A DNA stretch of 64,000 bases from a virus (IMGVR_UViG_3300034272_001701:48473-112472); one strand, 5' to 3'; numbered from the stretch's first letter, positions 1,269 through 25,417 are shown. Numbers and translations are program-made. The notes: generated by a model from the sequence alone, not told the origin.

Positions 1269-2186
1269 ATGGAACAACAATATTTAACAGCATTGCGTGA
1301 TGTTTTAGAAACAGGGACACGCAGAGATGATCGTACGGGCGTGGGTACCATTGCCAAATTTGGTATGCAGCAACGTTACGACCTCGACCAAGGTTTTCCT
1401 GCAATAACTACTAAAAAATTAGCATGGAAAAGCGTAGTCGGCGAACTACTTTGGATGATCGAAGGATCAGGTGATGAGCGTAGACTGGCAGAAATTACAC
1501 ACGGAACCCGAGACGGTACTGTGACTATCTGGACTCCTAATGCGCTTGCACCTTACTGGCAACCTCGGGCCAAGTTCGAAGGCGACCTGGGTCGTGTTTA
1601 CGGAGTACAATGGCGTCATTGGCGTACTGTTAAACAACGAGAAGCAAACGGTAGTTTCAAAGACAGTTTTGGTAGTACTTATCGTAGAGTAGGTAATAAT
1701 ATAGAAGTAAAAGAAGTTGATCAACTAAAGTCGCTGATCGAGGGTATAAAAGCAGACCCATACGGACGAAGACATATATTAACAGCGTGGAACCCAGGCG
1801 AGTTAGACGTCATGGCCTTGCCCCCGTGTCATTGCTTTGCACAGTTTTATGTAGCAGATGGTAGACTCAGCTGCCAGATGTATCAAAGAAGTTGCGACAT
1901 GTTTCTAGGTGTACCGTTCAATGTCGCCAGCTATAGCCTATTAACGGCTATGATAGCACAAGTGTGCGGTTTAAAAGTCGGCGAGTTCGTTCACGTTCTA
2001 GGCGATGCACACATATACCTAGACCATGTGGAGCAGGTTAATGAACAGTTGACACGTGAACCATTTCCTGCCCCGCAATTGTACCTCAATCCTGAGATTA
2101 CTGATATTACCAAGTTTACCATGGCAGATATTAGATTAGAAAATTATCAAAGCCACGACGCTATTCGAGCAAGGATGGCAGTGTAA
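1269..2186 (+). CDS. thyA: Thymidylate synthase (canonical dUMP type)
   Basis: Motifs DRTGVGT, ELLW, YGVQWR, GRRHILTAWNP, LPPCH (catalytic Cys), YQRSCDMFLGVPFN (Asn specifying dUMP) and GDAHIY. No intron. Confidence 0.97.
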   Translation: MEQQYLTALRDVLETGTRRDDRTGVGTIAKFGMQQRYDLDQGFPAITTKKLAWKSVVGELLWMIEGSGDERRLAEITHGTRDGTVTIWTPNALAPYWQPRAKFEGDLGRVYGVQWRHWRTVKQREANGSFKDSFGSTYRRVGNNIEVKEVDQLKSLIEGIKADPYGRRHILTAWNPGELDVMALPPCHCFAQFYVADGRLSCQMYQRSCDMFLGVPFNVASYSLLTAMIAQVCGLKVGEFVHVLGDAHIYLDHVEQVNEQLTREPFPAPQLYLNPEITDITKFTMADIRLENYQSHDAIRARMAV

Positions 2187-3253
2187 TGAGTGGTAATATT
2201 ACAATTTACTTAGGTGATGATACTCCAGCATTTCATACCTATGTAAAAAGAAATGACCCATTAGCACATGAATACAGATTAAACGGAGATAATAATACAA
2301 TTGTTTGGATCAAAATTGATGATTACACTCCAAAAGATCTTAATAAGATTTTTTTAGAAGCAAAACAAGTTATATACTGCCCTCCTGTGAATTGGAAAAA
2401 CAACGAGCTTGAGTATTATACTAAAGGGTGGATAGAGTACCTTAGTTCTAGACGATCTGTTAAAACACTCAGAGTAGGAAAATACGGATTGGGTCCAACG
2501 GATTACGAATCACAAGATTTTATTATTCCAAGTTTTTTAAAACCAATTGCCAATCGTTTAACAGACGATAAACAAATTTGGATGGCAGGTTGTAGTTTTA
2601 CCAACGGTCACGGATTAGATGATAAAAATTTACGATTTGGTCAATTGTTTGCCGATAATTTAAATTTACCAGTTTCATTTCTTACAATGAATGGTGCATC
2701 AAATCAATGGACCGCTGATCAAATCCTTAAGGCAGATATACGATCCGGAGATATATTATTTTTTGGTGTCACAGGTACAGCAAGGAGTACCATTTATACT
2801 AAAGATCGATTATGGCCTATTACAATCAATGAACTAAACAAAAAATTACCTCTTTATCAAAAGTTAATTGTCGACAATAACAAGATTGCTCCAATGCGTC
2901 GAATGATCACAGAGGAATTCTTGCTTTCCGATCACAGTTTTTACGAATCAATCAATCATATTGAACAAGCGTTTAACTATCTTAAAAAATTAAAAGTCAA
3001 TTTTTTAATTGGTTATTTTGCTGATTTAGATTTCCCTTATTTAGATCATATGGGTAAAATGATGCATTACATGTTGAGTCATAACGATCCCCGATTGTTT
3101 GTAATCAAACCAGAATATCCTTGGAAAGATATTATTATTAGAAACCCTCAAGATACAAACAATGATGATGCTCCTGTACATCATCCAGGTCCAAATCAAC
3201 ACAAAATTTACGCAAACGATTTATTATCTATATATAACGAATTATATCAATGA
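2186..3253 (+). CDS. SGNH/GDSL-like hydrolase-fold protein with an unknown N-terminal region
   Basis: Block I GCSFT, GASN, and C-terminal D..(H)HPG..QH; very AT-rich. Confidence 0.55.
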   Translation: MSGNITIYLGDDTPAFHTYVKRNDPLAHEYRLNGDNNTIVWIKIDDYTPKDLNKIFLEAKQVIYCPPVNWKNNELEYYTKGWIEYLSSRRSVKTLRVGKYGLGPTDYESQDFIIPSFLKPIANRLTDDKQIWMAGCSFTNGHGLDDKNLRFGQLFADNLNLPVSFLTMNGASNQWTADQILKADIRSGDILFFGVTGTARSTIYTKDRLWPITINELNKKLPLYQKLIVDNNKIAPMRRMITEEFLLSDHSFYESINHIEQAFNYLKKLKVNFLIGYFADLDFPYLDHMGKMMHYMLSHNDPRLFVIKPEYPWKDIIIRNPQDTNNDDAPVHHPGPNQHKIYANDLLSIYNELYQ

Positions 3254-3480
3254 TATTACACTCGTTTACAATGGGCGATGTTGAAGATCCTTATCTGTAT
3301 GCTGCTTTTCCTATTAGTGATTGGCAACAGACCGAACACGGCAAATGGATAATGTCAAATGTAATTGGTGAACCTACATTTCATATCACGCCTGATCCAA
3401 ATACATTTGGATACCGTGTGGTAATAACAGGCGATCTTACACCCGAAGCAGCAACATTCTTTACATTAAAATATCGATGA
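3250..3480 (+). CDS. Small hypothetical phage protein (GDVEDP motif)
   Basis: 76-aa ORF with ATGA overlaps at both ends. Confidence 0.7.
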   Translation: MILHSFTMGDVEDPYLYAAFPISDWQQTEHGKWIMSNVIGEPTFHITPDPNTFGYRVVITGDLTPEAATFFTLKYR

Positions 3481-4445
3481 GAGCATTAATCACTGGCGCA
3501 GCTGGATTTATTGGACACAATGTTGTTTACTATCTTGAAAAGCAAGGAGTAGAATGTTTTGGTGTTGACAATAGAACCAACTATGGTTTTATTCCAGCCG
3601 ACGAGTTAGACTACTTGATACGAGGTAGATTACGAAAAATAAGATCATCTCCTTTGGTTGGCGATATAAGAAACACCGAAGACATGCGTAGTCGAGTTGG
3701 TACTTTTAGTTGTGATACTATTATTCATTTAGCTAGTTTTCCTAGACAGAAAGTTGTTCAGCAGTCACCGGTAGTAGCAAGCGAAGTGATGATTACTGGT
3801 TTAATAAATTTATTAGAAGCGGCTGTAGTACACAAAGTAAAAAAATTTGTATACATAAGTTCTAGCATGGTATATGGAAATTTTGAATCTGGTGTCAATG
3901 AATCAGCTGTTTGCTGTCCCCAAGGTCAATACGGAATCATGAAATATATGGGCGAGAAGCTTGTTGAGGATTATTGTACAAGACACGCAATACCGTATAT
4001 AATTATTAGACCAAGTGCAGTATACGGTGAATGGGACGTCGAGGATCGTGTAGTGAGTAAATTTGCATTAGCAGCATTGCGTGATCAAGAACTAACTGTG
4101 CGAGGCGCTAATGAACGTCTTGATTTTACACATGTTGACGATACTGCTCAAGGAATTGTTGCAGGTATTTTAAGTAAAAATACAGCCAATAAAATATATA
4201 ATATCACACGCAGTGATTCAAACACATTAACTCTATTACAAGCAGCAGAGTTGATAACTGAAATTGTAGGTAAAGGTTCTATCAAGGTAGCAGATAGAGA
4301 TTTAAACTTTCCAAGTCGCGGTAGATTGAGTATAGATCGAGCACAACAGGATTTTAATTTTGATCCAAAAATAAATGTAAAAGAAGGATTTGAGCGTTAT
4401 ATTGATTGGTTAAAATCTTCAACCTATTGGCAGAGTCGACTATGA
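3477..4445 (+). CDS. NAD-dependent nucleotide-sugar epimerase/dehydratase (extended SDR)
   Basis: TGAAGFIG Rossmann motif, IIHLA, SSSMVYG, catalytic YGIMK (YxxxK), RPSAVYG and DFTHVDD. Confidence 0.92.
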   Translation: MRALITGAAGFIGHNVVYYLEKQGVECFGVDNRTNYGFIPADELDYLIRGRLRKIRSSPLVGDIRNTEDMRSRVGTFSCDTIIHLASFPRQKVVQQSPVVASEVMITGLINLLEAAVVHKVKKFVYISSSMVYGNFESGVNESAVCCPQGQYGIMKYMGEKLVEDYCTRHAIPYIIIRPSAVYGEWDVEDRVVSKFALAALRDQELTVRGANERLDFTHVDDTAQGIVAGILSKNTANKIYNITRSDSNTLTLLQAAELITEIVGKGSIKVADRDLNFPSRGRLSIDRAQQDFNFDPKINVKEGFERYIDWLKSSTYWQSRL

Positions 4446-5542
4446 ATGTGGTTCCGTTTTTTGGGGTAGATAGACAATATAAAAATCTACGCGAAGAAAT
4501 TCTTGACATCACTGATAGAGTGTACTCTACCGGTCGAGTACTAGATGGAAACTATACTCAAGAATTTGAATTGCGAATCGCGAGACGCTGTAATAGAGCG
4601 TATGCATTGGCAGTGAACTCAGGCACCCAAGGCCTAATATTTGCACAACAGGCTGTGTTAACGAAACCACCGTACGCTGTTTTAATCCCCACTGTTAGTT
4701 TTGTAGCTACTATTAATAGTGTTCTAATGAACGGATTTATTCCGGTATTTTGTGATGTAGATTTTAAAGGAATTTTAGATTTAGATTCTTATCAATACAA
4801 ATTAGATGCCAGTGTAGGTGCAATCATGTATGCGAATCTATTCGGTAATTGCATCGATTGGAATAGATTTAGAATGCAAACAGAATTCTTCAACGACGAT
4901 TTGGCTGTAATCGAAGATGCCGCACAAAGTTTTGGTGCAAGTTATCGAGGTATACCTAGTGGCAAGATGGGAGATATCAGTGTATTAAGTTTTGATCCAA
5001 CCAAGAACTTGAACAACTACGGGTCAGGCGGAATGATCTTGACTGACAATCTTGATTACTATAACACTTGCTTGGCATTAAGAGACAATGGCAAAGCCAT
5101 CCATGACATACCAGGCACTAACAGTAAAATGAGCGAAGCTGACTGCGCTCAAATGTTAGTCAAACTCAATCACTTTGATGCTTGGCAAGATCGTAGACGA
5201 AAGATCGCCGAATACTATATTGATCAACTATATCAATACGTTGATATTCTTACGCCAAATGAAGGTGTAGAACATGCTTGGCACAAGTTTGTGATTAGAA
5301 CCAATCATAGAAACAGTTTGATGCAGAGACTAAGCTTGGATGGCATAGAAACCAAGATACATTACGAAAATGCCTTGTACGACCTGGGTGTGGGATTTAA
5401 CTATGTTGACTACAGCAGAGATCTATATACAGAAACTAGTGCATTTACTAGAGAGTGTTTGAGCTTGCCTATATATCCTGAATTGTCAGATGCCGAAGTT
5501 GAAACAGTTGCTGACAGTATCAAACGTTATATAGAGTCCTAA
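4442..5542 (+). CDS. DegT/DnrJ/EryC1/StrS PLP-dependent sugar aminotransferase
   Basis: Motifs NSGT, SFVAT, IEDAAQSFG, SFDPTKNL (PLP lysine), GGMI and LSLPIYP. Start reassigned to ATG 4442, giving an ATGA overlap with the epimerase stop. Confidence 0.92.
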   Translation: MNVVPFFGVDRQYKNLREEILDITDRVYSTGRVLDGNYTQEFELRIARRCNRAYALAVNSGTQGLIFAQQAVLTKPPYAVLIPTVSFVATINSVLMNGFIPVFCDVDFKGILDLDSYQYKLDASVGAIMYANLFGNCIDWNRFRMQTEFFNDDLAVIEDAAQSFGASYRGIPSGKMGDISVLSFDPTKNLNNYGSGGMILTDNLDYYNTCLALRDNGKAIHDIPGTNSKMSEADCAQMLVKLNHFDAWQDRRRKIAEYYIDQLYQYVDILTPNEGVEHAWHKFVIRTNHRNSLMQRLSLDGIETKIHYENALYDLGVGFNYVDYSRDLYTETSAFTRECLSLPIYPELSDAEVETVADSIKRYIES

Positions 5543-7376
5543 ATCTATCAGCCAGCCAAGGCCAATCAAAACTAAGCATTAGTCGATCGTATTCTCCCGC
5601 AACTTCCGTGTAGTAATCAACTGCGTCTTGCGCTCCACGCAAACACCATTCAGCATAATCTCCATTGGCTGTTGTAAGCCATGTGTTGAGTCTATGTTCG
5701 GTCTCTAGTGTAGGTGACTGATCCATAAACAATTTTAATTTTAATACTTCTCTAAATGCTGTACGCCAAGTGGTCCACGGATCTTGGTTGAAGTATGCAA
5801 TGGCACTTAGTTCAGGAACCACAGTGTGTTTTTGACTTAGTGTAAAGTCTAGTCCAGACTCAATGGTTTCTAATACCAATCGTTTGTTGTAAGCAATTAC
5901 ACCCATGTGTCCGTACTCTAAACCGTTAAGACAATTGCGACTATGGAATATGTAATGCTTGGCTTCTTGCCAGTAGTCCGGTTGCCAAGTAAAATCAAAA
6001 CTTCCCATAACTTCTAATTTAGCAAACACAGCAAAGAACCACGCCGACTCACTTGCTTGTGCAGCAGCATGGTACGCAGCAACTCGTCCATTGACATTTT
6101 TTACTCTGTGAACCTTTTGATGTCCATGTGGTATCTGTGCATCTACCACTGTTACCAAATGATTGTACCAGCGTTCTGCATCAGGCTCTCCGTTGCTAAT
6201 ATACACAATATTCAGTGGTCGATCTGTATAATATGCGTCTTTTCTTGTTAAAACATACGGATAATCGTACAATTGTGTCTTGATATGTGCTCGAGCTTCT
6301 CTAGGTACTAGACTCATGCTACCTGACTGATTCAATGGCTCTGCAATTCTATCTTTTGGATGCCATATACACGGTGGTGTAAAAACTGGGTAAAGTGGAA
6401 ATTCTGTTGTCTTGAAAATGGTATAAGGAAATTGAAAGTCATGATTGGTAATTGGTTCAACAATACTATCACCATTGTATTGAACAATCGGAACATCCAC
6501 CGGCACTATTTGAGTGTTACAATAATGTATAACATTAAACCAATCAAGCAATTCCAACTCATACAGTTGTGTTCTCAAAGAAGGAACGTGTATATAAAAG
6601 GTATCTCCTCGTCGTTGTGCATATTGCCCACTATGCGAATACGTAGGAAATACGTGAATCATTTCTTGTTGTTCGGGTGCAGGGTGCCAAGTAAAATCAA
6701 AATCTGCGTACATACAAAAACTACTAATGATCCAAACATACTCTGTGGTTGCCAAGTTTGCAATTCGCTTAAACACATTTAGATGGCTATCAACATAACG
6801 AGTAGATTTTGAGTCCGGATATTGTTTTTTTATTTTAGCAAATTGTTCTTGGCTTCCTTTGTTGAGGAAATCCATATAGAAGATTTGTGTGGCACCTGAT
6901 TGAATATGCTGACTACTAACAAATTTTACGCCAGCAGTTCCTCGATATATTGGACCCCCATCACGCTGCCATTGTGTAGGAAAATGATATTCATAGTCTG
7001 GCTCTAGTTCATCTGGATGCCAACTATAGTCAAAATCTTCGTCATTGATATTAGCGGGTATGATCCATTTTGTTTTATCTGCCAGTCTTGTAGCTTTTTG
7101 TTCGTTTCTAAAATGCCATTCTTTATTATGTGTTGTATCTTTATTCGCTAGATATGCGCCGCCTGTGCGCTGCCATTGTGTACCAAAGCAGTGTATTTGA
7201 TTAGATTCCCAAGGAGCCGGGCGCCATGAAAAATCAAAATCAGCGTAATCGTTATCTCCATAAATATACCAGTAGTGTCCGGTTCTACTTTTCTCAGCTG
7301 CATCTTCTAACGAGTCAGCAGGCTGCTCATGTGCAAATCTATTAGGTTTAGCTCCATAATAAAAAACGTCAAACAT
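5520..7376 (-). CDS. Multi-repeat glycosyltransferase-A-like protein, probably catalytically degenerate
   Basis: Four copies of (D/S)FD(F/Y)(S/T)WxP. The C-terminal domain aligns by eye with 22193..23122 (ISNGEP..RVKNVNGRVAAYHAAA..WRTAFREVLKL), but the DGD motif is replaced by FAK. Confidence 0.55.
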   Translation of the reverse strand: MFDVFYYGAKPNRFAHEQPADSLEDAAEKSRTGHYWYIYGDNDYADFDFSWRPAPWESNQIHCFGTQWQRTGGAYLANKDTTHNKEWHFRNEQKATRLADKTKWIIPANINDEDFDYSWHPDELEPDYEYHFPTQWQRDGGPIYRGTAGVKFVSSQHIQSGATQIFYMDFLNKGSQEQFAKIKKQYPDSKSTRYVDSHLNVFKRIANLATTEYVWIISSFCMYADFDFTWHPAPEQQEMIHVFPTYSHSGQYAQRRGDTFYIHVPSLRTQLYELELLDWFNVIHYCNTQIVPVDVPIVQYNGDSIVEPITNHDFQFPYTIFKTTEFPLYPVFTPPCIWHPKDRIAEPLNQSGSMSLVPREARAHIKTQLYDYPYVLTRKDAYYTDRPLNIVYISNGEPDAERWYNHLVTVVDAQIPHGHQKVHRVKNVNGRVAAYHAAAQASESAWFFAVFAKLEVMGSFDFTWQPDYWQEAKHYIFHSRNCLNGLEYGHMGVIAYNKRLVLETIESGLDFTLSQKHTVVPELSAIAYFNQDPWTTWRTAFREVLKLKLFMDQSPTLETEHRLNTWLTTANGDYAEWCLRGAQDAVDYYTEVAGEYDRLMLSFDWPWLADRFRTLYNV

Positions 7377-11974: not shown

Positions 11975-12072
11975 TTGTAAATGAAAGGATCTCGTTTACG
12001 AAGTTCGCGTAATTTGCGTCGATATTTAATTTCTAATCGTATTCTATTCCAAATGTTTTTTAACCATGTCAT
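11971..12072 (-). CDS. 33-aa basic peptide MTWLKNIWNRIRLEIKYRRKLRELRKRDPFIYK (SxtK-like ends), below the ORF-track cutoff
   Basis: Translated by hand. It fills the only gap in the operon, with an ATGA overlap to 11974 and an overlap with the stop at 12044. Confidence 0.75.
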   Translation of the reverse strand: MTWLKNIWNRIRLEIKYRRKLRELRKRDPFIYK

Positions 12073-18028: not shown

Positions 18029-19475
18029 TTAATACTCGCAGCTCTGTAAAAGTTTCCCAAAAATTTTCTTTCCGCACATCATCTAATTTTTTAATTTCTT
18101 CTTTGAATCGAGGAAACAAATGACTATTATTTGTACTCTGAACAAACTTTAACACGCTCTTAAATCCATTGGTTGCTCTTTTCAAACTATCTAATGGCTC
18201 AATCCATTCTATATGTTTTTCGTATGCCGGTATAATTACTTCTTTCTTGAACCACTCTGGAAAAATATCAGCTCTATACCATTCTGGGCTTAAACACAGA
18301 TTGATATTCACATCACCTGGTCTGATTAATCCCAGTTCAACCCACTCTCTATGAAAGTCTAATACGTGCAAGATATTCATAGCACTGACTGTAGGGTTAA
18401 TATGAAAGTCAACATGTGGCACTTCTTTTTTCATTGCCAATCTATTTTCAATTGCTTGTTCCCAAACAGTTCCTTTACGTATTAATTCTGCACGGGCGCC
18501 GCTGGCATCTAAACTTGCCCCTAGGCTCACACTCTTAAATTGTTTCCAATAATCAAAAACATGTTTGTCTTTAAATCTTAATTCGCTAAAATTAGAATTA
18601 TATAACAATCTAACATCTGTTTTGCCGTGTTCAATCAATTTCTCTAACATGAAATAATGTTCTTTCATAATTAGAGGTTCGCCGCCAGCAAAATAAACTT
18701 GCTCAAGATAAGGAATATGAGGGATCATCTGCTCAAGCATGGCATCTTCGTCACCTGCGGTATATTCAACCCTAAGCATCTCACGGCCTAATACATCAGG
18801 CTTACGATTATACAATTTAACATGATCGTTATACCAATTACTGCTAAAAATAGGTCCGCATGATCGACAACTAAAATTACAAAGATTACTGAATCGAACA
18901 TCCCAATATCTTAATTTAAATTCAGGATGAGTGCCGTCCTCTAGTGTAAGATCTGTTTCTTCAATATTATGGCCGTAGTTTCTATTAGCATCATTACGCA
19001 TACTAAAGAATCCGTTTTTTTCGTGTTCGTAACACTTAGTGCATTCAACTGATTCTTTGTCGTTGAGCATGTTGATACGAATTTTTTTATATGATTCTTG
19101 ATTCCATATTTCTTGCATTGTGTTCTTACGCATATCTCCAACTGGGTGCCAGTAATCTCCTAGACAGCATGGATACGCACGACCATCCGGGAACGCATGA
19201 AAATGCACCCACGGTAACATACAAAACGTTTTACTTTTTGTAAGTTTATGTAATTGATCTTGTGTGAATTGTTTGTCATCTGCATACATTGGCATCAATG
19301 ACAAATAATCGTATTCTTTTTTAAATATATATTCTGATTTTTTTTCTAATTCTAACAATTCTTTTTTAATCTCTGGCTTTTTAATTTTCACATCAGCTAT
19401 ATAATCATCGTAACTAGGCCAATCGGCGCCAGCAAATTTTTCATAAAAATCTCGTTGCAATTTGTTATTCTTCAT
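18015..19475 (-). CDS. Radical SAM protein with N-terminal twitch-like domain (type A) and an ~80-aa N-terminal extension
   Basis: CMLPW..PCC..CTKC, CNFSCRSC, SSNW, GGEP, YNSN and ASLDA. Confidence 0.9.
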   Translation of the reverse strand: MKNNKLQRDFYEKFAGADWPSYDDYIADVKIKKPEIKKELLELEKKSEYIFKKEYDYLSLMPMYADDKQFTQDQLHKLTKSKTFCMLPWVHFHAFPDGRAYPCCLGDYWHPVGDMRKNTMQEIWNQESYKKIRINMLNDKESVECTKCYEHEKNGFFSMRNDANRNYGHNIEETDLTLEDGTHPEFKLRYWDVRFSNLCNFSCRSCGPIFSSNWYNDHVKLYNRKPDVLGREMLRVEYTAGDEDAMLEQMIPHIPYLEQVYFAGGEPLIMKEHYFMLEKLIEHGKTDVRLLYNSNFSELRFKDKHVFDYWKQFKSVSLGASLDASGARAELIRKGTVWEQAIENRLAMKKEVPHVDFHINPTVSAMNILHVLDFHREWVELGLIRPGDVNINLCLSPEWYRADIFPEWFKKEVIIPAYEKHIEWIEPLDSLKRATNGFKSVLKFVQSTNNSHLFPRFKEEIKKLDDVRKENFWETFTELRVLNESS

Positions 19476-20827
19476 AAATTAATATACCATTCTGCCAAGT
19501 TTGGAAACGTTGTAATAAAGTTTTTATCTCTACGTTGATCGTATTGTGTATAAAACTTTTTAAAATCTTGTTGTAGTATTTGCTGTTCTGCAGCGCCTAA
19601 ATGTGGTGTCTTTACTACGTCTAAATAATCAATAAGTCTTTGCAACTGATTTAATTCCATTTCGTGAATTAATGTATTATTTTTATTCTTGTTATACCAA
19701 TTTTCTAAATTGTTTTTGTGTTGAGTTCTAATTTCGTCAGGCAGTACCAAAGGACTTTGAAAACTTGGAAATCTCAATATATTTAAAGTAAAAAATGGAT
19801 AGTTTTTTCCATAACATGTTTTCCATTCTACTATACAATCTAAAAACTCTGTTAAACTTTCTAAACAAAGTGCATTAATCGTACACATGATGTGTAGACC
19901 GCGCAATTTATTGCCTACTTGATGATCTAGTATCAACTCTATACTATCAGCCCAATCGTTCCAAACCAATCCGTCTCTAATATACTCTGCATGACTGCCG
20001 ACGCTTTCATTACTAGTGTATAGGTCAATGGGTGCGTCCACACTTGAAAATAAACGATCGATATCAACTTGTGTTCCTAGGTTAGAGTTAATTGCCAGTC
20101 TTGTTTGGCTTTTTCCTTTGTTTTCTTTAAACCAATCAAGCAGTTTCCAGGTATAGCCTGACATCAAAGGCTCACCACCGGTAATACGTAATTCAGTTAA
20201 GGTTCTGTGGAGGTCCGATTCCCACCATTCAAAGAAGGCCGTGATGTATGGGTTATCTTCACCAAATTTAAAAAGCTGCGAACTGTCATGGCTATGAGTA
20301 AAATGATTCCTACCATCAGACACCAGGTCCACGTAGGGTCCGTTAGTGTTGATGTCTTTGACCCAAGTGCTACTGAATGCAGGGTTGCAATAACTGCAAG
20401 CAAACTGACAAGTGCGATCAAAACTGATTTCAAGAGTGCGAAGATTGGCATCTTCTGTTGGCGGTGTTCTGAATGCATGATCAAGATCCTCATCTGAAAA
20501 TAAAACTGTTTTATAGACTCGGTCGCTAATATTGTCTCTTCCAATGTCTTCGATCTTCCAACAATACTCACATCCTGCAGGTCTTTCGCCTGCCTGCATT
20601 TGTCTACGCTCCTCTTTCTTTTTTGGGGTATTGTGCAATGCTCGAGGATTTGCTTGCACATCTGCTACTTCAACCTTGTGCGGTAATGGATGATGACAAC
20701 TAGTGGTCATGCCGCTGCCTAACCATATAGTAGCGTTGTACCATTTTGCTCCGCAGAAGCTTTCTGACTTGATGTCAATTACTCTGCGTTTGTATTCTAA
20801 ATCTGTTTCGTTATTAATTTTGGGCAT
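19472..20827 (-). CDS. Radical SAM protein with N-terminal twitch-like domain (type B)
   Basis: CGAKW..SCHHP..H..CEYCW, CQFACSYC, SSTW, GGEP and INSN. Confidence 0.9.
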   Translation of the reverse strand: MPKINNETDLEYKRRVIDIKSESFCGAKWYNATIWLGSGMTTSCHHPLPHKVEVADVQANPRALHNTPKKKEERRQMQAGERPAGCEYCWKIEDIGRDNISDRVYKTVLFSDEDLDHAFRTPPTEDANLRTLEISFDRTCQFACSYCNPAFSSTWVKDINTNGPYVDLVSDGRNHFTHSHDSSQLFKFGEDNPYITAFFEWWESDLHRTLTELRITGGEPLMSGYTWKLLDWFKENKGKSQTRLAINSNLGTQVDIDRLFSSVDAPIDLYTSNESVGSHAEYIRDGLVWNDWADSIELILDHQVGNKLRGLHIMCTINALCLESLTEFLDCIVEWKTCYGKNYPFFTLNILRFPSFQSPLVLPDEIRTQHKNNLENWYNKNKNNTLIHEMELNQLQRLIDYLDVVKTPHLGAAEQQILQQDFKKFYTQYDQRRDKNFITTFPNLAEWYINL

Positions 20828-22199
20828 GGTATTTGCATTCGTCCCAAAATTCTCGCATTTCTGGGAACGTTTCTAAAAAGTTAGTTTGCCTACGTTTATC
20901 GTGCTCGTTAAAGAATCTATAAAAATCAGCACGTTGTAGTTTAACATATTCCGGTTGCAATCGCCAACCTTCCTTCATCCAATCTACCACACGTTGCAGC
21001 CTTTGTACTTCATAATCTTTAAAACCTTGAAATGGACGATCTGGTGTTTCGACATTGAGTTGCATCCAATCTACTACATCTTGTAATCGTTTAACATAAA
21101 CTGGCGGTAGTATTTGTAGGCTTTGCCAAGTGGGTTGTCTCAGTATAGGCGTATCAAACCAAACTCGTTGATATGTTTTACTGTACAATAGGCGCAAGGA
21201 TAAAATATTCTGTAATAAACTTTGCAAGCCAATTACATTCAAATTACTCATTGTAATAATGAAAGTTAGACTATTTCTATTAGGAATTTTATCCAAATAT
21301 CTATGAACATTTTCTTGCACTCGATTATAGTCTAGTCCGTGGCGAATGTACTCTGACTGAGAACGGATTCCTGAATCTAAACTAACGTATTGCATAAAGT
21401 GTTCTATGTTGGTATCGCACAATCTTTTTACATAATCATGATACTGATCATATAATTTAGTTTCCACACTAAAATTGCTGGTCACATCAATATGTAGATC
21501 AGGTTTAGGAAATGCCAACACATAATCAAACACTCGATATGTATTACGATCCATCAATGGCTCGCCGCCGGTCATCCTAAAGTGTTTTAACTTTGGATAC
21601 AGAGTTGGCCACCACTCCCAAAAGGCATCAACATATGGATTATCTTCTCGAACAGGGATAGGTCGTCTGCGACCGCTAAAATGGGAAGCATCATTGTGAA
21701 TAGTGGAAGTGGGATATCCTCCAAAACGTCCCACTTCATCACCCCAGCTACTACTAAACTGAGGACTGCAATAGGAACACTTAAGATTGCAAGCATGATT
21801 AAAATTGACCTCCACATAGGAAGGAGTAAAATCTCTATCACCAGCATCATGACTGTTAACAATCTCTGAAAAGTGTTCTGCTGCCCAGGGCTCTCCTGAA
21901 CGATAATGTCTATCACTTAAATTCCCCATATCTTCTTGTGTCCAACAATAACTACATTCTTGCGGTCGTTCATTACGCAGCATAATCTTACGCTGAGCTT
22001 TTTTATAGGGCGTATTATGTAATGCACTAGGATTGTCTTTCAACAATGCAGCATCTATTTCGTGTAAAGGAGGATGATAACAACTGTTGGTCAATCCTGT
22101 AGGAAGATGTAAACTGACCTGTTGCCACTTAGCAAGGCATAAGCTTGGTCCTAATCGTTCTTTTGCCTGCTCGGCAGCAGACATAAAATCACTCACCAT
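20814..22199 (-). CDS. Radical SAM protein with N-terminal twitch-like domain (type B)
   Basis: CLAKW..SCYHP..H..CSYCW, CNLKCSYC, SSSW, GGEP, VTSN and VSLDS; GTG start. Confidence 0.9.
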   Translation of the reverse strand: MVSDFMSAAEQAKERLGPSLCLAKWQQVSLHLPTGLTNSCYHPPLHEIDAALLKDNPSALHNTPYKKAQRKIMLRNERPQECSYCWTQEDMGNLSDRHYRSGEPWAAEHFSEIVNSHDAGDRDFTPSYVEVNFNHACNLKCSYCSPQFSSSWGDEVGRFGGYPTSTIHNDASHFSGRRRPIPVREDNPYVDAFWEWWPTLYPKLKHFRMTGGEPLMDRNTYRVFDYVLAFPKPDLHIDVTSNFSVETKLYDQYHDYVKRLCDTNIEHFMQYVSLDSGIRSQSEYIRHGLDYNRVQENVHRYLDKIPNRNSLTFIITMSNLNVIGLQSLLQNILSLRLLYSKTYQRVWFDTPILRQPTWQSLQILPPVYVKRLQDVVDWMQLNVETPDRPFQGFKDYEVQRLQRVVDWMKEGWRLQPEYVKLQRADFYRFFNEHDKRRQTNFLETFPEMREFWDECKYHAQN

Positions 22200-23122
22200 C
22201 CTTCTATCCTACGAATAACATCTATTTCGGTCATCATGATTTCGCTGTTGCGCTGGCCTGTACTATAGTGATGTTTAAAGAATTGACTTTGGTTGGGTGT
22301 ATACATAACAATAGGCAACCCTAATCTGGTAGTCAATGCACCTTCAATTCTTTCACAACCCTCTTCAGGGTCTTCTTTACTAAACATATCCCACAGTTTT
22401 TCTAATACATCAAAGTCTTGTACGTATTTGTAATCCCACCCTTCTAGCATGATCATAAATGTTCCCAGTCGAGCTCCGTACATAGCCCAATAACCATTTT
22501 CAACATCAGCTCCTACGCTATGCCATATACAAAGATGATCGTAGTTTCTTTTGTTAACACCTTCTTCAAATTCTTGTAGTGTAGGTTTGTGCCCTCTATT
22601 GAGACACATCTTTACGCCTTCTCTAAATCCAGCACGCCATGCCTGTTTGGCGCTACCATTAGGATATGTTGTACTATAACAATTGTGCATGGCAGTGTAT
22701 TTTGGATCAAAACAAAACTCAACAGCAGTTTCTTCGTCTCCACTACTGGCTTCGTGTGTACGCATATTCATTACAAAGTCTTTTGTCCAGCAACTTACAC
22801 CACCATTGCCATAACGTAGACCGTTTACGACATTTCGTGCCTTCCATCTAAAAACGTGGTCGCGATTCGTTTCGTTGAGCAATAATTGTAGATTAAAAAA
22901 TTCCGGGTCTGGTATATTATCACCATCAATAAGAACAAACCGATCAGTATCGCTTGCCTCTGCGGCTGCTTTGTGTGCTGCGTCAGATCCTTTAACACCA
23001 TCCACTCTCTTTGCCCATGGCACCATGTTTTGAATTTTGATCCAAAACTCTTCTTTCTTGGGTTCGTCGTACGTTAGAAAAATACAATCTAAATCTGCAA
23101 TATCAACTATTTGTTCGGTCAT
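22193..23122 (-). CDS. Putative GT-A fold glycosyltransferase
   Basis: IFLTYDEP, RVDGVKGSDAAHKAAA, FVLIDGDN (DxD), YGNGG and AWRAGFREGVKM. Likely start MTEQ at 23122. Confidence 0.6.
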   Translation of the reverse strand: MTEQIVDIADLDCIFLTYDEPKKEEFWIKIQNMVPWAKRVDGVKGSDAAHKAAAEASDTDRFVLIDGDNIPDPEFFNLQLLLNETNRDHVFRWKARNVVNGLRYGNGGVSCWTKDFVMNMRTHEASSGDEETAVEFCFDPKYTAMHNCYSTTYPNGSAKQAWRAGFREGVKMCLNRGHKPTLQEFEEGVNKRNYDHLCIWHSVGADVENGYWAMYGARLGTFMIMLEGWDYKYVQDFDVLEKLWDMFSKEDPEEGCERIEGALTTRLGLPIVMYTPNQSQFFKHHYSTGQRNSEIMMTEIDVIRRIEGW

Positions 23123-23477
23123 AATATTCAATTTCCAAATACTCTTCGTTTAATCCTAGCGCAACTGCTGCCATTCCTTTTACTACCGGTTGTCCTTGTG
23201 TTGATTTTTTTAATCTTACTTGGTCAGATGTTTTTGCATCTAATGTAATTAGTTTTTTATCTACTACACGTAGCAAAAGTGTGTTTGCTTTATGAAATAC
23301 GTCTGGATTATCAACTACAATATAATTATCTCCATCAGGATGATCCGTTTCACTAAACGCTGTTACTAGTCCATTTTTGTCATAATACATCCTGTATTCT
23401 TTGACCATAGGTAATCTTTTACGATCTTCCTCTTCAACTAATTTTAAAGCTTTATAAAACTCTTCTACAGGATTCAT
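23103..23477 (-). CDS. Hypothetical protein
   Basis: 124-aa ORF overlapping both neighbours in the operon. Confidence 0.7.
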   Translation of the reverse strand: MNPVEEFYKALKLVEEEDRKRLPMVKEYRMYYDKNGLVTAFSETDHPDGDNYIVVDNPDVFHKANTLLLRVVDKKLITLDAKTSDQVRLKKSTQGQPVVKGMAAVALGLNEEYLEIEYYDRTNS

Positions 23478-24294
23478 AATATTCTATCATTTCATCTTTA
23501 GCAAATTTTTTATCGTAATAGTGCAATGGGTGGTATTGATTAATGTTGTTGATTCTGATCATGCCATGATCAAATTCACTTACGTATACGTCTTCGAACA
23601 TATTACTTTCGTTAAAATTATTAATAGAAGGCTTCATGTGTACAAAATTAATAAAATCAGCTGACGGTATTGTACATAGTTCATCTCCGACTATTCTTGC
23701 TGCTATGGCATAAACAACATCTGTAGTAGCATATTGATCTCTACAATTTAATAAACTATTTTGTATAACTTCCCAATTGTTAAAAATTATTCGTGCGTAC
23801 TTAAAAAAGTCGGTAGCAGTTTGCGAATATCTAAAATACATTAGCCCATTGTAGGTATCCGGTAAATTATTATCATCAAATAATTTACGATAGCGTCGAG
23901 ACGAAGCCAACTTCTGTTGATAATTTCTGCAACCTGTACTTAATACTATATCACGTAATCTAAAAGCATGTATCCAATGATCGATTGATCTAGTAAACAA
24001 AAGATCCGATTCTAATTTAATTGTCTCTTTGTATGGAGTTAAGCCAAAAGCCAGATGCTCATAACCAAACGATCCATAGTCGTTGTTTGTTATTTCAATG
24101 ATGTGATCAAAAGTCTTTTTGTGTTCGTCGGTTAATAATTTTGCTGTTTCTGTGTTAACAACAACTGCACAGCTATTATTTTTTTGTGTGGCCTTGATAT
24201 TCAATGCCTGCAAATAGGCAAGCCGTAGATAATCTGTTTCTTCAGAATTGATTGCAAAAGTTAAAAATCCTAACTGTTCTTTATGCTGGCTCAT
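23452..24294 (-). CDS. Putative GT-A (GT8-like) glycosyltransferase
   Basis: DYLRLA, LTPYKETIKLESD (DxD-like ESD), YNGLMYF, TDVVYAIA and FVHMK. Confidence 0.6.
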   Translation of the reverse strand: MSQHKEQLGFLTFAINSEETDYLRLAYLQALNIKATQKNNSCAVVVNTETAKLLTDEHKKTFDHIIEITNNDYGSFGYEHLAFGLTPYKETIKLESDLLFTRSIDHWIHAFRLRDIVLSTGCRNYQQKLASSRRYRKLFDDNNLPDTYNGLMYFRYSQTATDFFKYARIIFNNWEVIQNSLLNCRDQYATTDVVYAIAARIVGDELCTIPSADFINFVHMKPSINNFNESNMFEDVYVSEFDHGMIRINNINQYHPLHYYDKKFAKDEMIEYYESCRRVL

Positions 24295-25075
24295 TTAATA
24301 ACTGTTCAACTAAATTTTCAAAATCGCTCGATTGTAAATATTTTTTACTCATGATGTGCAAATTAGTTCGAGGCACAATGTATGCTTTTGAATCATCTCT
24401 AACAATAAACTTAGAGTCCTGTAGTTCTATTTTGTTTATTGATTGATTAATTGCTAATAAACTTCCTGGGATCGTGGATGTTTGAGTTATATAGCCATTT
24501 ATGATAATATCAGCAATGGAAAATGCATAATCGTTTCTATAATTTCTTTCTCGTATATTAAACAATGCTCGATAATATGAATAATTTTTTTGTATTCTAT
24601 CTATTAGGTCAAAAAATAGTTTGGCTCTTGGTGTTTTTCTAAATGCAAATACTGTAGCCCATATGTAAGGTAAACTATTATCTCCCATTGTGTCTGCCCA
24701 TTCCGCTGTCAATGCATGACTATTTCTTTGTAATAAATAATCCCAATTGCATTTAAATATATCTAGTAGACTGTTATCCACCACAAGATAATCAACATCA
24801 ACCACCAAGGTTTCATCGTAAGGACTTAATTCATATGCACTGTGTCTATTAAAATTTCTCCACGACACAAAAGTATTACTATCAATATCAAAACGATTAT
24901 TTGTTAAATCGTTGTCTTTTGTATTTGTGATAAGAGTATATGGTAATTTAAGTTTTTGGCTAGCTACAGACAGTGTTTTATTTGCTATACTAACGTAATC
25001 TGTTGTTTCTGTGTTTAAGGCAAATGCAAGAATACCTCTAGAGTTTTCTAATTTTTTTGAGTTCTTCATAATCAT
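24281..25075 (-). CDS. Putative GT-A (GT8-like) glycosyltransferase
   Basis: DYVSIA, AYELSPYDETLVVDVDYL (DxD), WATVFAF, RNDYAFSIA and LHIMSK; paralog of 23452..24294. The start may be 25069. Confidence 0.6.
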   Translation of the reverse strand: MIMKNSKKLENSRGILAFALNTETTDYVSIANKTLSVASQKLKLPYTLITNTKDNDLTNNRFDIDSNTFVSWRNFNRHSAYELSPYDETLVVDVDYLVVDNSLLDIFKCNWDYLLQRNSHALTAEWADTMGDNSLPYIWATVFAFRKTPRAKLFFDLIDRIQKNYSYYRALFNIRERNYRNDYAFSIADIIINGYITQTSTIPGSLLAINQSINKIELQDSKFIVRDDSKAYIVPRTNLHIMSKKYLQSSDFENLVEQLLNEPA

Positions 25076-25352
25076 TGTGCCATTGATTCATTACTAACTG
25101 ATAATGCTGTTGTGCCTGGACCAAAAAAACTTGCCTATCAATTTTTATAGGGTTGTTATATGTGTCTTCTAAATATAATTCATCAACCGGCCAAGTTTTA
25201 ACAAACGCTATTAATTCTGGAGTTATCTTAAAGAGTCCGCCACAGTGTGCTAGATGCAAATCCGTTTGGATCTTTTCTCTCAAAATTATTTTGTTTTTTT
25301 GAAAGTCGGTGGCCTGTCTAATTTGATTTACTAAAAGTTCGACGTCGTTCAT
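25038..25352 (-). CDS. Hypothetical protein, first gene of the modification operon
   Basis: 104-aa ORF directly downstream of the promoter region at 25353-25419. Confidence 0.7.
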   Translation of the reverse strand: MNDVELLVNQIRQATDFQKNKIILREKIQTDLHLAHCGGLFKITPELIAFVKTWPVDELYLEDTYNNPIKIDRQVFLVQAQQHYQLVMNQWHNDYEELKKIRKL

Positions 25353-25366
25353 GTATAAATGTAGAA

Positions 25367-25417
25367 ACTGGTTAGGATACTATTGTACACTAACCAGTAT
25401 GAAAATGCAAATATTTA
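25367..25417 (-). promoter_or_regulatory. Sigma70-like promoter, late-type TAAATA box and 9-bp inverted repeat
   Basis: Minus strand: TTGCAT (25410-25405), 17 bp, TACAAT (25387-25382); TAAATA at 25417-25412. Inverted repeat ACTGGTTAG (25367-75) / CTAACCAGT (25390-98). Confidence 0.6.

What the first reader, a model, noticed from the sequence alone, without database searches (positions are those of the whole stretch)
2186..25352. Candidate new system: a phage radical SAM / glycosyltransferase / carbamoyltransferase tailoring island linked to the tail genes
Seen: twenty consecutive minus-strand genes (25352 to 8459) each overlap the next, consistent with one coupled operon starting right after the tail-fibre genes. 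They encode two GT8-like proteins, one GT-A, five radical SAM enzymes, a TEKIFKP GT-like protein, an SDR, two SGNH proteins, a peptide, a carbamoyltransferase, a 2OG oxygenase, a kinase and dCMP deaminase. Adjacent genes add an NDP-sugar epimerase, a DegT aminotransferase, a third SGNH and two more GT-like genes. Established: epimerase plus DegT make amino sugars, NodU/CmcH enzymes O-carbamoylate hydroxyls, and SGNH proteins move O-acyl groups on glycans. Inference: the island builds and heavily tailors a glycan, possibly with radical-made linkages. The most likely target is the Ser/Thr/Asn-rich virion proteins (shielding or adhesion); host surface or DNA are alternatives.
Basis: partly seen in the sequence, partly recalled or inferred. 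Interest (0 to 1): 0.9.

Follow-up and report, generated by a model that had tools for sequence, protein, structure and literature searches.

The report
Jumbo-phage radical-SAM sugar-tailoring gene island
A fragment of an uncultured giant phage carries, right behind its tail-fibre genes, a real and widely conserved run of soluble sugar-transferring enzymes, five uncharacterised iron-sulfur radical SAM enzymes and a carbamoyl-adding enzyme. It most likely builds and chemically edits a sugar chain, but what that chain is attached to has not been measured.

Summary
Twenty minus-strand genes (25352 to 8459) each overlap the next. All five radical SAM genes belong to NCBIfam NF033640 (N-terminal-twitch rSAM). 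Two ORFs have a GT8/glycogenin-like fold, one has a GT-A-like fold, and the carbamoyltransferase, P-loop kinase, dCMP deaminase, epimerase and DegT are confirmed. The SDR, 2OG-oxygenase, GT10-like and third-SGNH labels rest on motifs or leads only.

The order fibre-p104-GT8-GT8-p124-GT-A-R1..R5-p384-SGNH-peptide-SGNH-carbamoyltransferase recurs in about 80 fetched IMG/VR loci. A one-rSAM version sits in the culturable Ralstonia phage RsoM2USA.

New here:
- A bacterial chromosome places the same rSAM family inside a Wzm/Wzt rhamnose O-polysaccharide locus, with one copy fused to Wzt.
- One metagenomic protein fuses a p384-like domain to an rSAM.
- The island has its own sigma-70-type promoter, with a palindrome bracketing the -10 hexamer. 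It is therefore not simply the tail of the late fibre operon.
- dCMP deaminase, ThyA and DHFR look like ordinary dTMP synthesis.

Sugar tailoring is well supported. The target is open: fibre about 0.35, host envelope glycan about 0.3. This scan has already reported the same system on other DNA (84 notes in at least 75 genomes).

The parts
25420..26364 (-). fib314: Ser/Thr/Asn/Gly/Ala-rich fibre-like protein, always immediately upstream of the island. Candidate acceptor.
   Evidence: S, T, N, G and A make up 60% of residues. It shares an N-terminal roughly 90-aa module with the other fibre ORFs and with RsoM2USA_355. It precedes p104 in 78 of 78 loci. No other cultured phage has a homologue.
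25367..25411 (-). Sigma-70-type promoter-like site (TTTGCA-18-TACAAT, 25411..25382), with an inverted repeat (25398-25390 / 25375-25367) bracketing the -10 hexamer.
   Evidence: Tool hit at 9 of 12. At the same position in relatives, 36 of 62 unique upstream regions score at least 10 of 12, against 6 of 283 coding controls. Palindrome arms covary between loci.
25038..25352 (-). p104: conserved small protein with no known family. First gene of the island.
   Evidence: No Pfam or PHROG hit. Found in 80 loci at a median 61% identity, and in RsoM2USA_354.
24281..25075 (-). p264: GT8-like glycosyltransferase paralogue.
   Evidence: hhalign to the p280 family gives probability 98%. D93-x-D95 is invariant.
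23452..24294 (-). p280: GT8/glycogenin-like retaining GT-A fold.
   Evidence: AF2 pLDDT 92.9. Foldseek matches glycogenin at E 8e-9, then LARGE1, UGGT and XXYLT1. Weak PDB profile hit to glycogenin at E 0.1.
23103..23477 (-). p124: conserved small protein of unknown function.
   Evidence: 71 loci at a median 34% identity. No family hit.
22193..23122 (-). p312: GT-A-like domain with invariant DGD, followed by a helical C-terminal half. Well conserved in the loci fetched with it; family of more than 8000 metagenomic clusters.
   Evidence: 41% identical to RsoM2USA_350.
20814..22199 (-). R1: N-terminal-twitch radical SAM enzyme.
   Evidence: NF033640 at 314.7 bits. 35% identical to RsoM2USA_349.
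19472..20827 (-). R2: N-terminal-twitch radical SAM enzyme (same subtype as R1).
   Evidence: NF033640 at 295.3 bits. Alignment.
18015..19475 (-). R3: N-terminal-twitch radical SAM enzyme with an extra roughly 80-aa N-terminal extension.
   Evidence: NF033640 at 385.1 bits. Pfam SPASM at residues 85-149 lies before Radical_SAM at 194-357.
16814..18028 (-). R4: N-terminal-twitch radical SAM enzyme.
   Evidence: NF033640 at 350.5 bits.
15895..16827 (-). GT10b: 'SEKIFKP' ORF, possible GT10-like transferase. A variable insert.
   Evidence: Paralogue of 7375-8514. No Pfam or PDB hit. Present in only some loci.
15224..15898 (-). p224: possible NAD(P)-binding protein. A variable insert.
   Evidence: Only an N-terminal GxxGxxG motif. 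No Pfam hit. Seen in 2 loci.
13936..15231 (-). R5: N-terminal-twitch radical SAM enzyme.
   Evidence: NF033640 at 293.8 bits.
12813..13967 (-). p384: conserved protein with no known family, functionally tied to the rSAMs.
   Evidence: 627 representative clusters. P0341 fuses a p384-like domain to an R3-like rSAM. No Pfam, PDB or Atlas hit.
12044..12835 (-). SGNH2: SGNH/GDSL-like esterase or acyltransferase.
   Evidence: Invariant S, G, N and H in alignment A7. Best PDB profile hit is the GDSL protein 4rsh at E 1.2e-3.
11971..12072 (-). Conserved, very basic 33-aa peptide ending DPFIYK.
   Evidence: Translation. 18 loci at a median 76% identity. No Pfam hit.
11321..11974 (-). SGNH1: DUF6071 / SGNH-like protein.
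   Evidence: PF19547 at E 9.5e-10. Alignment A7.
9874..11355 (-). NodU/CmcH-type carbamoyltransferase (true start probably ATG 11355).
   Evidence: Carbam_trans_N and Carbam_trans_C. 61-72% identical in 4 of 5 long relatives, where the match begins at residue 23.
9320..9877 (-). p185: possible 2OG-Fe(II) oxygenase. Variable gene.
   Evidence: Invariant H108-x-E110...H163...R175. No Pfam or PDB hit. Absent from the four long relatives examined.
8883..9323 (-). Small P-loop kinase (APS-kinase/KTI12-like), kept next to the carbamoyltransferase.
   Evidence: Conserved at 45-56% identity in relatives.
8459..8920 (-). dCMP deaminase. Last gene of the overlapping run, probably nucleotide metabolism rather than glycan work.
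   Evidence: PF00383 at E 1.6e-21. Syntenic in relatives together with ThyA and DHFR.
7375..8514 (+). GT10a: 'TEKIFKP' ORF, possible GT10-like transferase.
   Evidence: The nearest named Atlas clusters carry Glyco_transf_10, score 0.80, which is a lead only.
5520..7376 (-). WHP618: four 'DFDxSWxP' repeats plus a C-terminal p312-like domain that lacks the DGD motif.
   Evidence: hhalign 97% to the p312 family over residues 387-559. Sequence. Conserved in relatives.
4442..5542 (+). DegT/DnrJ/EryC1 sugar aminotransferase.
   Evidence: PF01041 at E 1.5e-74.
3477..4445 (+). NDP-sugar epimerase/dehydratase.
   Evidence: PF01370 at E 4e-41.
Not conserved.
   Evidence: No Pfam hit. No homologue in the fetched relatives.

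Best explanation
Window 2186-25352 holds a cytoplasmic, all-soluble sugar-building and sugar-tailoring pathway of a Rak2/PA5oct/RsoM2USA-type jumbo phage. The contig is about 31% of the genome.

Inferred mechanism:
1. Epimerase and DegT supply an amino or deoxy NDP-sugar.
2. Two GT8-like transferases, the GT-A-like p312 and probably the GT10-like ORFs assemble a short glycan.
3. Five anciently diverged N-terminal-twitch radical SAM enzymes, with p384, edit C-H positions of the sugars. By analogy with twitch rSAMs such as BtrN, AprD4 and the glycan epimerases, the edits would be epimerisation, oxidation or deoxygenation.
4. SGNH proteins and the carbamoyltransferase (with its small peptide and perhaps the kinase) add or move O-acyl and O-carbamoyl groups.

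The module is read from its own sigma-70-type promoter. The acceptor is not established. My best single guess (about 0.35) is the phage's own Ser/Thr-rich fibre protein fib314, which travels with the module.

Shown: the gene families, the folds, the conservation, the promoter, and the bacterial O-polysaccharide context of the rSAM family. Inferred: every chemical step and the acceptor.
For: Families and folds:
- Five NF033640 members.
- GT8-like fold for p280, with p264 as its paralogue.
- GT-A-like fold with invariant DGD for p312.
- Carbamoyltransferase, epimerase and DegT.
- SGNH signature.

The rSAM family acts in glycan pathways. In bacterial genome G103 the chromosomal locus reads RmlC-RmlD-Wzm-Wzt::N_Twi_rSAM (854-aa fusion, no stop or internal Met at the junction)-three more rSAMs-TylF methyltransferase-methyltransferase-WbsX glycosyltransferase, next to dnaE and accA.

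p384 works with the rSAMs. P0341 fuses a p384-like domain to an R3-like rSAM.

Conservation:
- fib314-p104-p264-p280-p312 is kept in 78 of 78 loci.
- R1..R5 are kept in order in 41 of 60 loci. Each orthologue is 60-88% identical across loci, while the paralogues are only 17-27% alike.
- The carbamoyltransferase-to-DHFR order is kept in 338- and 354-kb relatives.

Link to the fibre. RsoM2USA has fib314-like-p104-GT8-GT8-x-p312-rSAM directly after its tail tube gene. Its relative XacN1 keeps sheath and tube but lacks the whole block.

No island protein has a predicted membrane segment. No flippase, polymerase, ligase or ABC exporter is present.
Against: - No experiment exists for any member. No NF033640 protein has a known reaction or a solved structure; the best PDB sequence hit is SkfB at E 0.002.
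- The fibre as target is circumstantial.
- The module has a sigma-70-type, not a late-type, promoter. Some relatives have a terminator after the fibre gene.
- The one bacterial context points to lipid-linked polysaccharide, not protein.
- Most fetched relatives are related phages, so their synteny is not independent evidence of function.
- Several enzyme labels (SDR, 2OG oxygenase, GT10) rest on motifs or leads only.
Confidence: 0.4

Rival explanations
1. Host-envelope remodelling. The enzymes act at the cytoplasmic face on the host's lipid-linked O-antigen, core or capsule intermediates, which the host's own exporters then display. This would block superinfection or change the cell surface during the long jumbo-phage latent period.
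For: - The only bacterial context found for the rSAM family is a Wzm/Wzt O-polysaccharide locus, with a Wzt-rSAM fusion.
- GT8 enzymes of bacteria are typically peripheral LPS-core transferases (established knowledge).
- The sigma-70-type promoter suggests expression before the late genes.
- This is the published reading of similar clusters in pelagimyophages and cyanophages (PMC7029224; PMC7824862).
Against: - The enzymes and their order are strongly conserved in phages from many environments (p312 at 66-90% identity), whereas host O-antigens vary greatly.
- There is no membrane-associated or initiating transferase.
- The module is always tied to one fibre gene, including in RsoM2USA.
Confidence: 0.3
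2. Free small-molecule product. The cluster makes an aminoglycoside- or nucleoside-like carbamoylated sugar metabolite that acts inside or outside the infected cell.
For: - Twitch rSAMs together with DegT, an epimerase, GTs and a TobZ/CmcH-type carbamoyltransferase recall aminoglycoside clusters (established knowledge).
- Iyer et al. predicted secondary-metabolite clusters with carbamoyltransferases in jumbo cyanophages (PMC7824862).
Against: - No scaffold-forming enzyme or exporter was found.
- The linkage to a fibre gene would be left unexplained.
Confidence: 0.12
3. DNA hypermodification. The GTs, kinase, carbamoyltransferase and rSAMs decorate a modified base in phage DNA.
For: - The island ends in a kinase and dCMP deaminase and abuts ThyA and DHFR.
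- Its promoter is of an early type.
- Phage DNA glycosylation is well known (10.1101/2023.12.21.572611).
Against: - ThyA scores as a canonical thymidylate synthase (352 bits) and is paired with DHFR and dCMP deaminase, the ordinary dTMP set.
- No Tet_JBP match was found in G000 or in three relatives that are 91-98% complete. The positive control did not ring, so this is weak evidence.
- In RsoM2USA the core cassette sits among tail genes.
- The rSAM family's bacterial context is polysaccharide.
Confidence: 0.08
4. RiPP-like peptide or protein cross-linking. The SPASM/twitch rSAMs modify amino-acid side chains of a small protein (p104, p124 or the 33-aa peptide) or of the fibre itself.
For: - Most characterised SPASM/twitch rSAMs are peptide maturases. 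There are weak hits to SkfB, StsB and AlbA models.
- Small conserved ORFs lie within the run.
Against: - Pfam found no RRE/PqqD-like leader-binding domain.
- fib314 has a single Cys.
- Fusion to Wzt and the placement in an O-polysaccharide locus argue for glycan substrates.
Confidence: 0.05

Closest known systems
NCBIfam NF033640, N_Twi_rSAM (twitch domain-containing radical SAM protein)
   Same: All five rSAMs score far above the family cut-off over the full model length. They have the N-terminal 4-Cys twitch domain followed by the CxxxCxxC core.
   Different: The family is only a sequence family. No reaction, substrate or structure is known. Here five anciently diverged members sit in one operon with GTs and a carbamoyltransferase.
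Host-recognition cluster of pelagimyophages and cyanomyophages (Zaragoza-Solas et al. 2020, PMC7029224)
   Same: A hypervariable region next to the tail fibres and a giant protein, containing GT8-type glycosyltransferases, LPS-like sugar genes and radical SAM cassettes.
   Different: Those are T4-like phages of 150-250 kb. This is a Rak2/PA5oct/RsoM2USA-type jumbo phage. The published account is descriptive and assumes host O-chain modification. It does not resolve a fixed core, the N-twitch family or a promoter.
RsoM2USA ORF347-355 (Ralstonia jumbo phage, MG752970; PMC8504454)
   Same: The same sub-core in the same order: fib314-like, p104, two GT8-like genes, p312 (41% identical), one rSAM (35%) and a p312 paralogue, directly after the tail tube gene.
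   Different: It has only one rSAM, and no p384, SGNH or carbamoyltransferase. All genes are annotated as hypothetical and none was identified among the virion bands analysed.
Virus-encoded virion glycosylation (PBCV-1 A64R capsid glycosyltransferase; mycobacteriophage capsid/tail glycosylation)
   Same: Virus-encoded soluble GT-A enzymes glycosylate structural proteins in the cytoplasm. The p312 model matches A64R at probability 0.99. Phage GTs next to structural genes are read this way (PMC11256854; Freeman et al. 2023, from my own knowledge).
   Different: Those systems have one to a few GTs and no radical SAM, SGNH or carbamoyl tailoring. Glycosylation of this phage's virion has not been shown.
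Twitch-domain radical SAM sugar enzymes (BtrN, AprD4, DesII-type, glycan epimerases)
   Same: A radical SAM core plus an auxiliary-cluster twitch domain acting on carbohydrate C-H bonds (established knowledge). This is the mechanistic analogy used for the inferred step.
   Different: Their twitch domain is C-terminal. There is no detectable specific sequence relationship: only generic rSAM hits appeared.

Membership tests
NF033640 N_Twi_rSAM | Full-length match above the curated cut-off (170 bits) | tested here: met
   294, 295, 315, 350 and 385 bits for the five genes.
NF033640 N_Twi_rSAM | CxxxCxxC radical SAM cluster motif, preceded by an N-terminal Cys-rich twitch/SPASM-like domain | tested here: met
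   The motif lies at residues 123-199 in all five. Pfam SPASM lies N-terminal to Radical_SAM. C8, C27, C73 and C76 are invariant.
CAZy GT8 (glycogenin/LgtC type) | GT-A fold closest to GT8 structures | tested here: met
   The p280 model has pLDDT 92.9. The top 40 Foldseek hits are glycogenin-1/2 at E about 1e-8, followed by LARGE1, UGGT and XXYLT1.
CAZy GT8 (glycogenin/LgtC type) | Sequence-family match (Pfam Glyco_transf_8) and a canonical DxD motif | tested here: not met
   Neither ORF has a Pfam hit. p264 has an invariant DxD, but p280 has E-S-D at that position. I therefore call them GT8-like in fold, not filed members.
GT-A glycosyltransferase superfamily (p312) | Rossmann-like GT-A domain with a DxD motif | tested here: inconclusive
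   D69-G-D71 is invariant. The fold hits (A64R, HAS, BcsA) are mixed with nucleotidyltransferases at Z 7-8.7, which lies within the range of common arrangements.
NodU/CmcH/TobZ carbamoyltransferases | Both Carbam_trans_N and Carbam_trans_C domains | tested here: met
   122.5 and 159.7 bits. The NodU equivalog cut-off of 1000 bits is not reached (130 bits), so it is a family member but not NodU itself.
SGNH/GDSL hydrolases | Conserved Ser (GDS block), Gly, Asn and His blocks | tested here: met
   S9, G, N43 and H237 are invariant in alignment A7. The best PDB profile hit is GDSL protein 4rsh at E 1.2e-3. There is a DUF6071 hit for 11321-11974. The third candidate, 2186-3253, has no support.
2OG-Fe(II) oxygenases (p185) | HxD/E...H iron triad plus a 2OG-binding Arg in a DSBH fold | tested here: inconclusive
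   H108-x-E110, H163 and R175 are invariant in 29 homologues. There is no Pfam or PDB profile hit and no fold model.
GT10 fucosyltransferases (the two 'EKIFKP' ORFs) | Match to Glyco_transf_10 or a GT-B fold | tested here: inconclusive
   No Pfam or PDB profile hit. The Atlas feature search gives Glyco_transf_10 clusters at 0.80, below the trust level.
RiPP radical SAM/SPASM maturase systems | RRE/PqqD-like leader-binding domain and a cognate precursor peptide | tested here: inconclusive
   No RRE-type Pfam domain was found in any of the five. Small ORFs exist, but nothing ties them to the rSAMs. The Wzt fusion argues for glycan substrates.
Phage DNA hypermodification islands (TET/5hmC-GT or 5-hmdU type) | A base hydroxymethylase or TET/JBP dioxygenase that supplies the attachment point | tested here: inconclusive
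   No PF12851 match in G000, G404, G405 or G406, but the control genomes did not ring either. ThyA looks canonical and is paired with DHFR.

The most novel reading that the evidence does not exclude
The five N-terminal-twitch radical SAM enzymes, with p384, perform post-assembly radical editing of a glycan: epimerisation, deoxygenation or oxidation of sugars already in a chain. The glycan is built on the phage's own fibre protein. If so, widespread aquatic and soil jumbo phages carry a previously unknown, heavily edited and carbamoylated virion glycan, and an uncharacterised enzyme family would gain a reaction class shared with bacterial O-antigen tailoring.
Probability: 0.25. Interest if true: 0.85.

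Novelty: new variant of a known kind. Interest (0 to 1): 0.62.

Why it matters
Phage-encoded sugar clusters beside tail fibres have been noted before, but never explained. This version has a fixed core and is very widespread: more than 8000 protein clusters for one core gene, on contigs up to about 369 kb. It centres on a radical SAM family with no known chemistry.

The Wzt fusion found here links that family to O-polysaccharide tailoring in bacteria. Solving one reaction would therefore inform both phage biology and bacterial surface-glycan diversity.

If the product sits on the virion, it would be a new layer of phage host recognition or shielding. If it sits on the host, it would be a large investment in surface remodelling by lytic jumbo phages.

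A culturable carrier, Ralstonia phage RsoM2USA, makes the question directly testable.

Tried and rejected
- Nucleotide search of the island against 50,697 phage records: no match.
- PHROGs for ten unassigned ORFs: nothing.
- Pfam at E up to 10 for ten unassigned ORFs: nothing useful.
- PDB profile searches for the p264, p312, p384, GT10-like and p185 families: no credible hit.
- ESM Atlas for p384: no usable hit.
With R4 alone against genome contigs it found only two marine MAG contigs, which are the same phage module mis-binned.
- NF033640 is rare in bacteria. It was found in 3 of 401 genomes sampled from one phylum (one of them the MAG G002 used as the search centre, which carries the mis-binned phage contig, and another a prophage) and in 1 of 133 genomes of one class.
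- Complex prediction of fib314 with p104: no verdict, score 0.00. This is evidence neither for nor against binding.
- The T4-type late promoter TATAAATA is absent from the window. TAAATA occurs upstream of several structural genes and of p104, but it is not conserved at p104 in relatives, so I dropped the late-promoter reading.
- The SxtK/DUF5989 reading of the 33-aa peptide: no Pfam support.
- Overlap of genes as evidence for a single function: rejected, because the run ends in dCMP deaminase and overlaps are general in this genome.

Full report
WHAT THE WINDOW IS. The window is the last 64 kb of a single 112,472-bp virus contig that CheckV rates 31% complete. Downstream of the finding lie a baseplate wedge, baseplate hub, a 4719-aa giant protein, several fibre-like ORFs and a gp55-like late sigma factor. 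The baseplate hub protein matches PA5oct-, Rak2-, XacN1- and SCTP-2-type jumbo myophages at about 30% identity. The contig is therefore a fragment of a jumbo phage of roughly 350 kb. No cultured phage is close at the DNA level.

THE OBSERVATION. ORF listing plus a 33-aa ORF at 11971-12072 gives 20 consecutive minus-strand genes from 25352 to 8459, and every junction overlaps by 4-38 nt.
- Confirmed by Pfam or NCBIfam: five radical SAM genes, a two-domain NodU/CmcH-type carbamoyltransferase, a small P-loop kinase, dCMP deaminase, and on the other strand an NDP-sugar epimerase, a DegT aminotransferase, ThyA and DHFR.
- All five rSAMs are full-length members of NF033640 (N_Twi_rSAM; 294-385 bits, cut-off 170). 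The SPASM/twitch domain lies in front of the radical SAM core. CxxxCxxC is intact, and four twitch cysteines are invariant. They are only 17-27% identical to one another and fall into two subtypes.
- Ten ORFs had no Pfam or PHROG hit, so I built family alignments from related loci.
- The AF2 model of p280 (pLDDT 92.9) matches glycogenin, LARGE1, UGGT and XXYLT1, which are GT8/GT24 retaining GT-A enzymes. p264 is its paralogue.
- The p312 model (pLDDT 77.9) has an N-terminal GT-A/nucleotidyltransferase-like domain with invariant D-G-D. Its hits include the PBCV-1 capsid glycosyltransferase A64R.
- The two SGNH candidates share invariant S, G, N and H, and their best PDB profile hit is a GDSL protein.
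- Four labels stay unverified. The '2OG oxygenase' has an invariant HxE...H...R pattern but no family or structure hit. The 'SDR', the GT10-like ORFs (a lead only) and the 'third SGNH' at 2186-3253 also lack support.

CONSERVATION. Searching IMG/VR with p312 gave 159 relatives, of which 80 loci were fetched.
- Mapping all island proteins onto them shows one collinear order: giant protein, p234, fibres, fib314, p104, p264, p280, p124, p312, R1, R2, R3, R4, R5, p384, SGNH2, 33-aa peptide, SGNH1, carbamoyltransferase.
- fib314-p104-p264-p280-p312 is intact in 78 of 78 loci with enough upstream DNA. All five rSAM orthologues are present in order in 41 of 60 loci with enough downstream DNA.
- Each orthologue is 60-88% identical across loci, so the five paralogues are old and individually maintained.
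- The GT10-like ORFs, p224 and extra rSAMs are variable inserts.
- In relatives of 338 and 354 kb (97-98% complete), the order carbamoyltransferase, kinase, dCMP deaminase, WHP618, (GT10a), DegT, epimerase, p76, ThyA, DHFR is also kept. p185 and p355 are not.
- The p312 family has more than 8000 clusters in metagenomes, on contigs up to about 369 kb. All are unannotated.
- These phages are related to each other, so this synteny shows the block is real and maintained. It does not show that all its genes share one function.

AN INDEPENDENT OCCURRENCE. Among 50,697 cultured-phage records, only Ralstonia phage RsoM2USA has p312, p280 and the R1-type rSAM. There, ORF355 (fib314-like), 354 (p104), 353 and 352 (GT8-like), 351, 350 (p312, 41% identical), 349 (rSAM, 35%) and 348 (a p312 paralogue) follow the tail tube gene ORF356. 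Its relative XacN1 keeps sheath and tube but has none of this block. The fibre-like gene therefore travels with the enzymes. This is the best, though still indirect, argument for a fibre target. With BLAST's low-complexity filter on, fib314 has no hit in any cultured phage; only the unfiltered local comparison finds RsoM2USA_355.

WHAT THE rSAM FAMILY DOES ELSEWHERE. NF033640 is rare in bacteria: 3 of 401 genomes sampled from one phylum, one of which is the MAG used as the search centre, whose own rSAM contig is the mis-binned phage module, and 0 of 14 control genomes. One of the other two copies sits in a prophage (ERF, YqaJ). The remaining one is chromosomal, next to dnaE and accA. It reads RmlC, RmlD, Wzm, then an 854-aa protein that fuses Wzt (ABC ATPase plus Wzt_C glycan-binding domain) to an N_Twi_rSAM with no stop at the junction. 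Three more N_Twi_rSAMs follow, then a TylF-type O-methyltransferase, another methyltransferase and a WbsX glycosyltransferase. That is an ABC-transporter-dependent rhamnose O-polysaccharide locus, and it ties the family to glycan tailoring at the cytoplasmic face. Separately, the unannotated p384 has 627 representative clusters, one of which (P0341) fuses a p384-like domain to an R3-like rSAM. p384 therefore probably works with the rSAMs.

REGULATION. The 67-nt gap between fib314 and p104 holds TTTGCA-18-TACAAT (25411..25382).
- On its own this is a chance-level hit. At the same place in relatives, however, 36 of 62 distinct upstream regions score at least 10 of 12 against TTGACA-N16-18-TATAAT, and 29 score 11 or 12. 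Only 6 of 283 coding controls reach 10.
- In most loci an inverted repeat with 6-18-bp arms, whose sequence differs between loci, brackets the -10 hexamer. Here it is 25398-25390 / 25375-25367. This looks like an operator.
- Some relatives also have a GC hairpin with a T-run after fib314.
- The T4 late motif TATAAATA is absent from the window: 0 found against 8.3 expected.
- The island is therefore its own transcription unit of host-RNAP type, not the tail of the late fibre operon. An earlier follow-up on another genome (e1-5619264) reached the same reading.

CELLULAR LOCATION. No island protein has a predicted membrane segment. There is no initiating transferase, flippase, polymerase, ligase or exporter. 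The pathway therefore works in the cytoplasm, either on a cytoplasmic acceptor or on host lipid-linked intermediates.

MECHANISM AND TARGET. That the block builds and tailors a sugar structure is well supported, at about 0.8. The chemical roles are inferred. Epimerase and DegT make the donor. The GT8-like, GT-A-like and GT10-like enzymes assemble the chain. The rSAMs and p384 edit sugar C-H positions. The SGNH proteins and the carbamoyltransferase add O-acyl and O-carbamoyl groups.
- Fibre target, about 0.35: the module travels with fib314 in two distant phage lineages, and the enzymes are far more conserved than host O-antigens would require.
- Host-envelope target, about 0.3: this fits the O-polysaccharide context, the early-type promoter and published opinion (PMC7029224, PMC7824862).
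- Small molecule about 0.12, DNA about 0.08, peptide cross-linking about 0.05.
- DNA is disfavoured because ThyA (352 bits), DHFR and dCMP deaminase form the ordinary dTMP set, and no TET/JBP match was found in near-complete relatives. That last search had no positive control.

NOVELTY AND PRIOR NOTES. Phage sugar islands beside tail fibres are known descriptively, and NF033640 exists as a named family, so this is a new variant of a known kind rather than a new category. The same scan has already reported this system on other DNA: 84 notes in at least 75 genomes, with the same closest-known family and the RsoM2USA link. I re-derived those points independently. What I add:
- the Wzt-rSAM fusion in a bacterial O-polysaccharide locus;
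- the p384-rSAM fusion;
- quantified promoter and palindrome conservation;
- the extended synteny through to ThyA and DHFR;
- the separation of the nucleotide-metabolism genes from the pathway.
The earlier notes' claim of a Bdellovibrio-type bacterial core was not tested here.

The fold quota allowed only two models. Complex prediction gave no verdict.

Noticed in passing
window 25367-25398 (minus strand), and the same position in L002-L081: An inverted repeat with 6-18-bp arms brackets the -10 hexamer of the island's promoter. The arm sequences differ between loci but stay complementary (for example CTGGTTAG/CTAACCAG, AAGGTTAG/CTAACCTT, GGTGTAG/CTACACC). This looks like a co-evolving operator for an unidentified regulator.
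   Followed up: partly
L097 (G103:C19) 8579-11143, minus strand: An 854-aa bacterial protein fuses the O-antigen ABC-transporter ATPase Wzt (ABC_tran plus Wzt_C) to an N-terminal-twitch radical SAM enzyme. It sits inside an RmlC-RmlD-Wzm...TylF-WbsX locus with three more such rSAMs.
   Followed up: partly
protein P0341 (754 aa, metagenomic): A p384-like domain (residues 3-223) is fused to an R3-like N_Twi_rSAM (residues 332-742, 36% identical to window R3). This fusion ties the unannotated p384 family to the rSAMs.
   Followed up: partly
window 5520-7376 (minus strand): A 618-aa protein has four 'DFD[FY][ST]W[HRQ]P' repeats, followed by a domain homologous to p312 in which the DGD motif is replaced. 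It may be a non-catalytic paralogue. It is conserved in relatives and related to RsoM2USA_348.
   Followed up: partly
window 1-64000: The T4-type late promoter octamer TATAAATA is completely absent on both strands (8.3 expected from shuffles), although the phage encodes a gp55-like late sigma factor at 59831-60715. The whole 112-kb contig has a single copy.
   Followed up: partly
window 11971-12072 (minus strand): A 33-aa, very basic peptide ending DPFIYK overlaps both SGNH genes. It is conserved at 66-90% identity in 18 related loci, always between the two SGNH genes and before the carbamoyltransferase.
   Followed up: partly
L082 (NZIN01000062.1) and L083 (NHCU01000062.1): Contigs binned into marine 'Rickettsiales' and 'Betaproteobacteria' MAGs carry this same phage module (fibre, p104, GT8-like genes, p312, tandem rSAMs). 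They are probably phage contigs mis-binned into bacterial MAGs.
   Followed up: partly
window 33444-47603 (minus strand): A single 4719-aa ORF lies between the baseplate wedge and the fibre genes. Parts of it match the virion-confirmed 2541-aa RsoM2USA ORF361.
   Followed up: no
window 25420-26364, 26376-28025, 31610-32737: Three fibre-like ORFs share a roughly 90-aa N-terminal module, also present in RsoM2USA_355. It is probably a common attachment domain carrying different distal parts.
   Followed up: no
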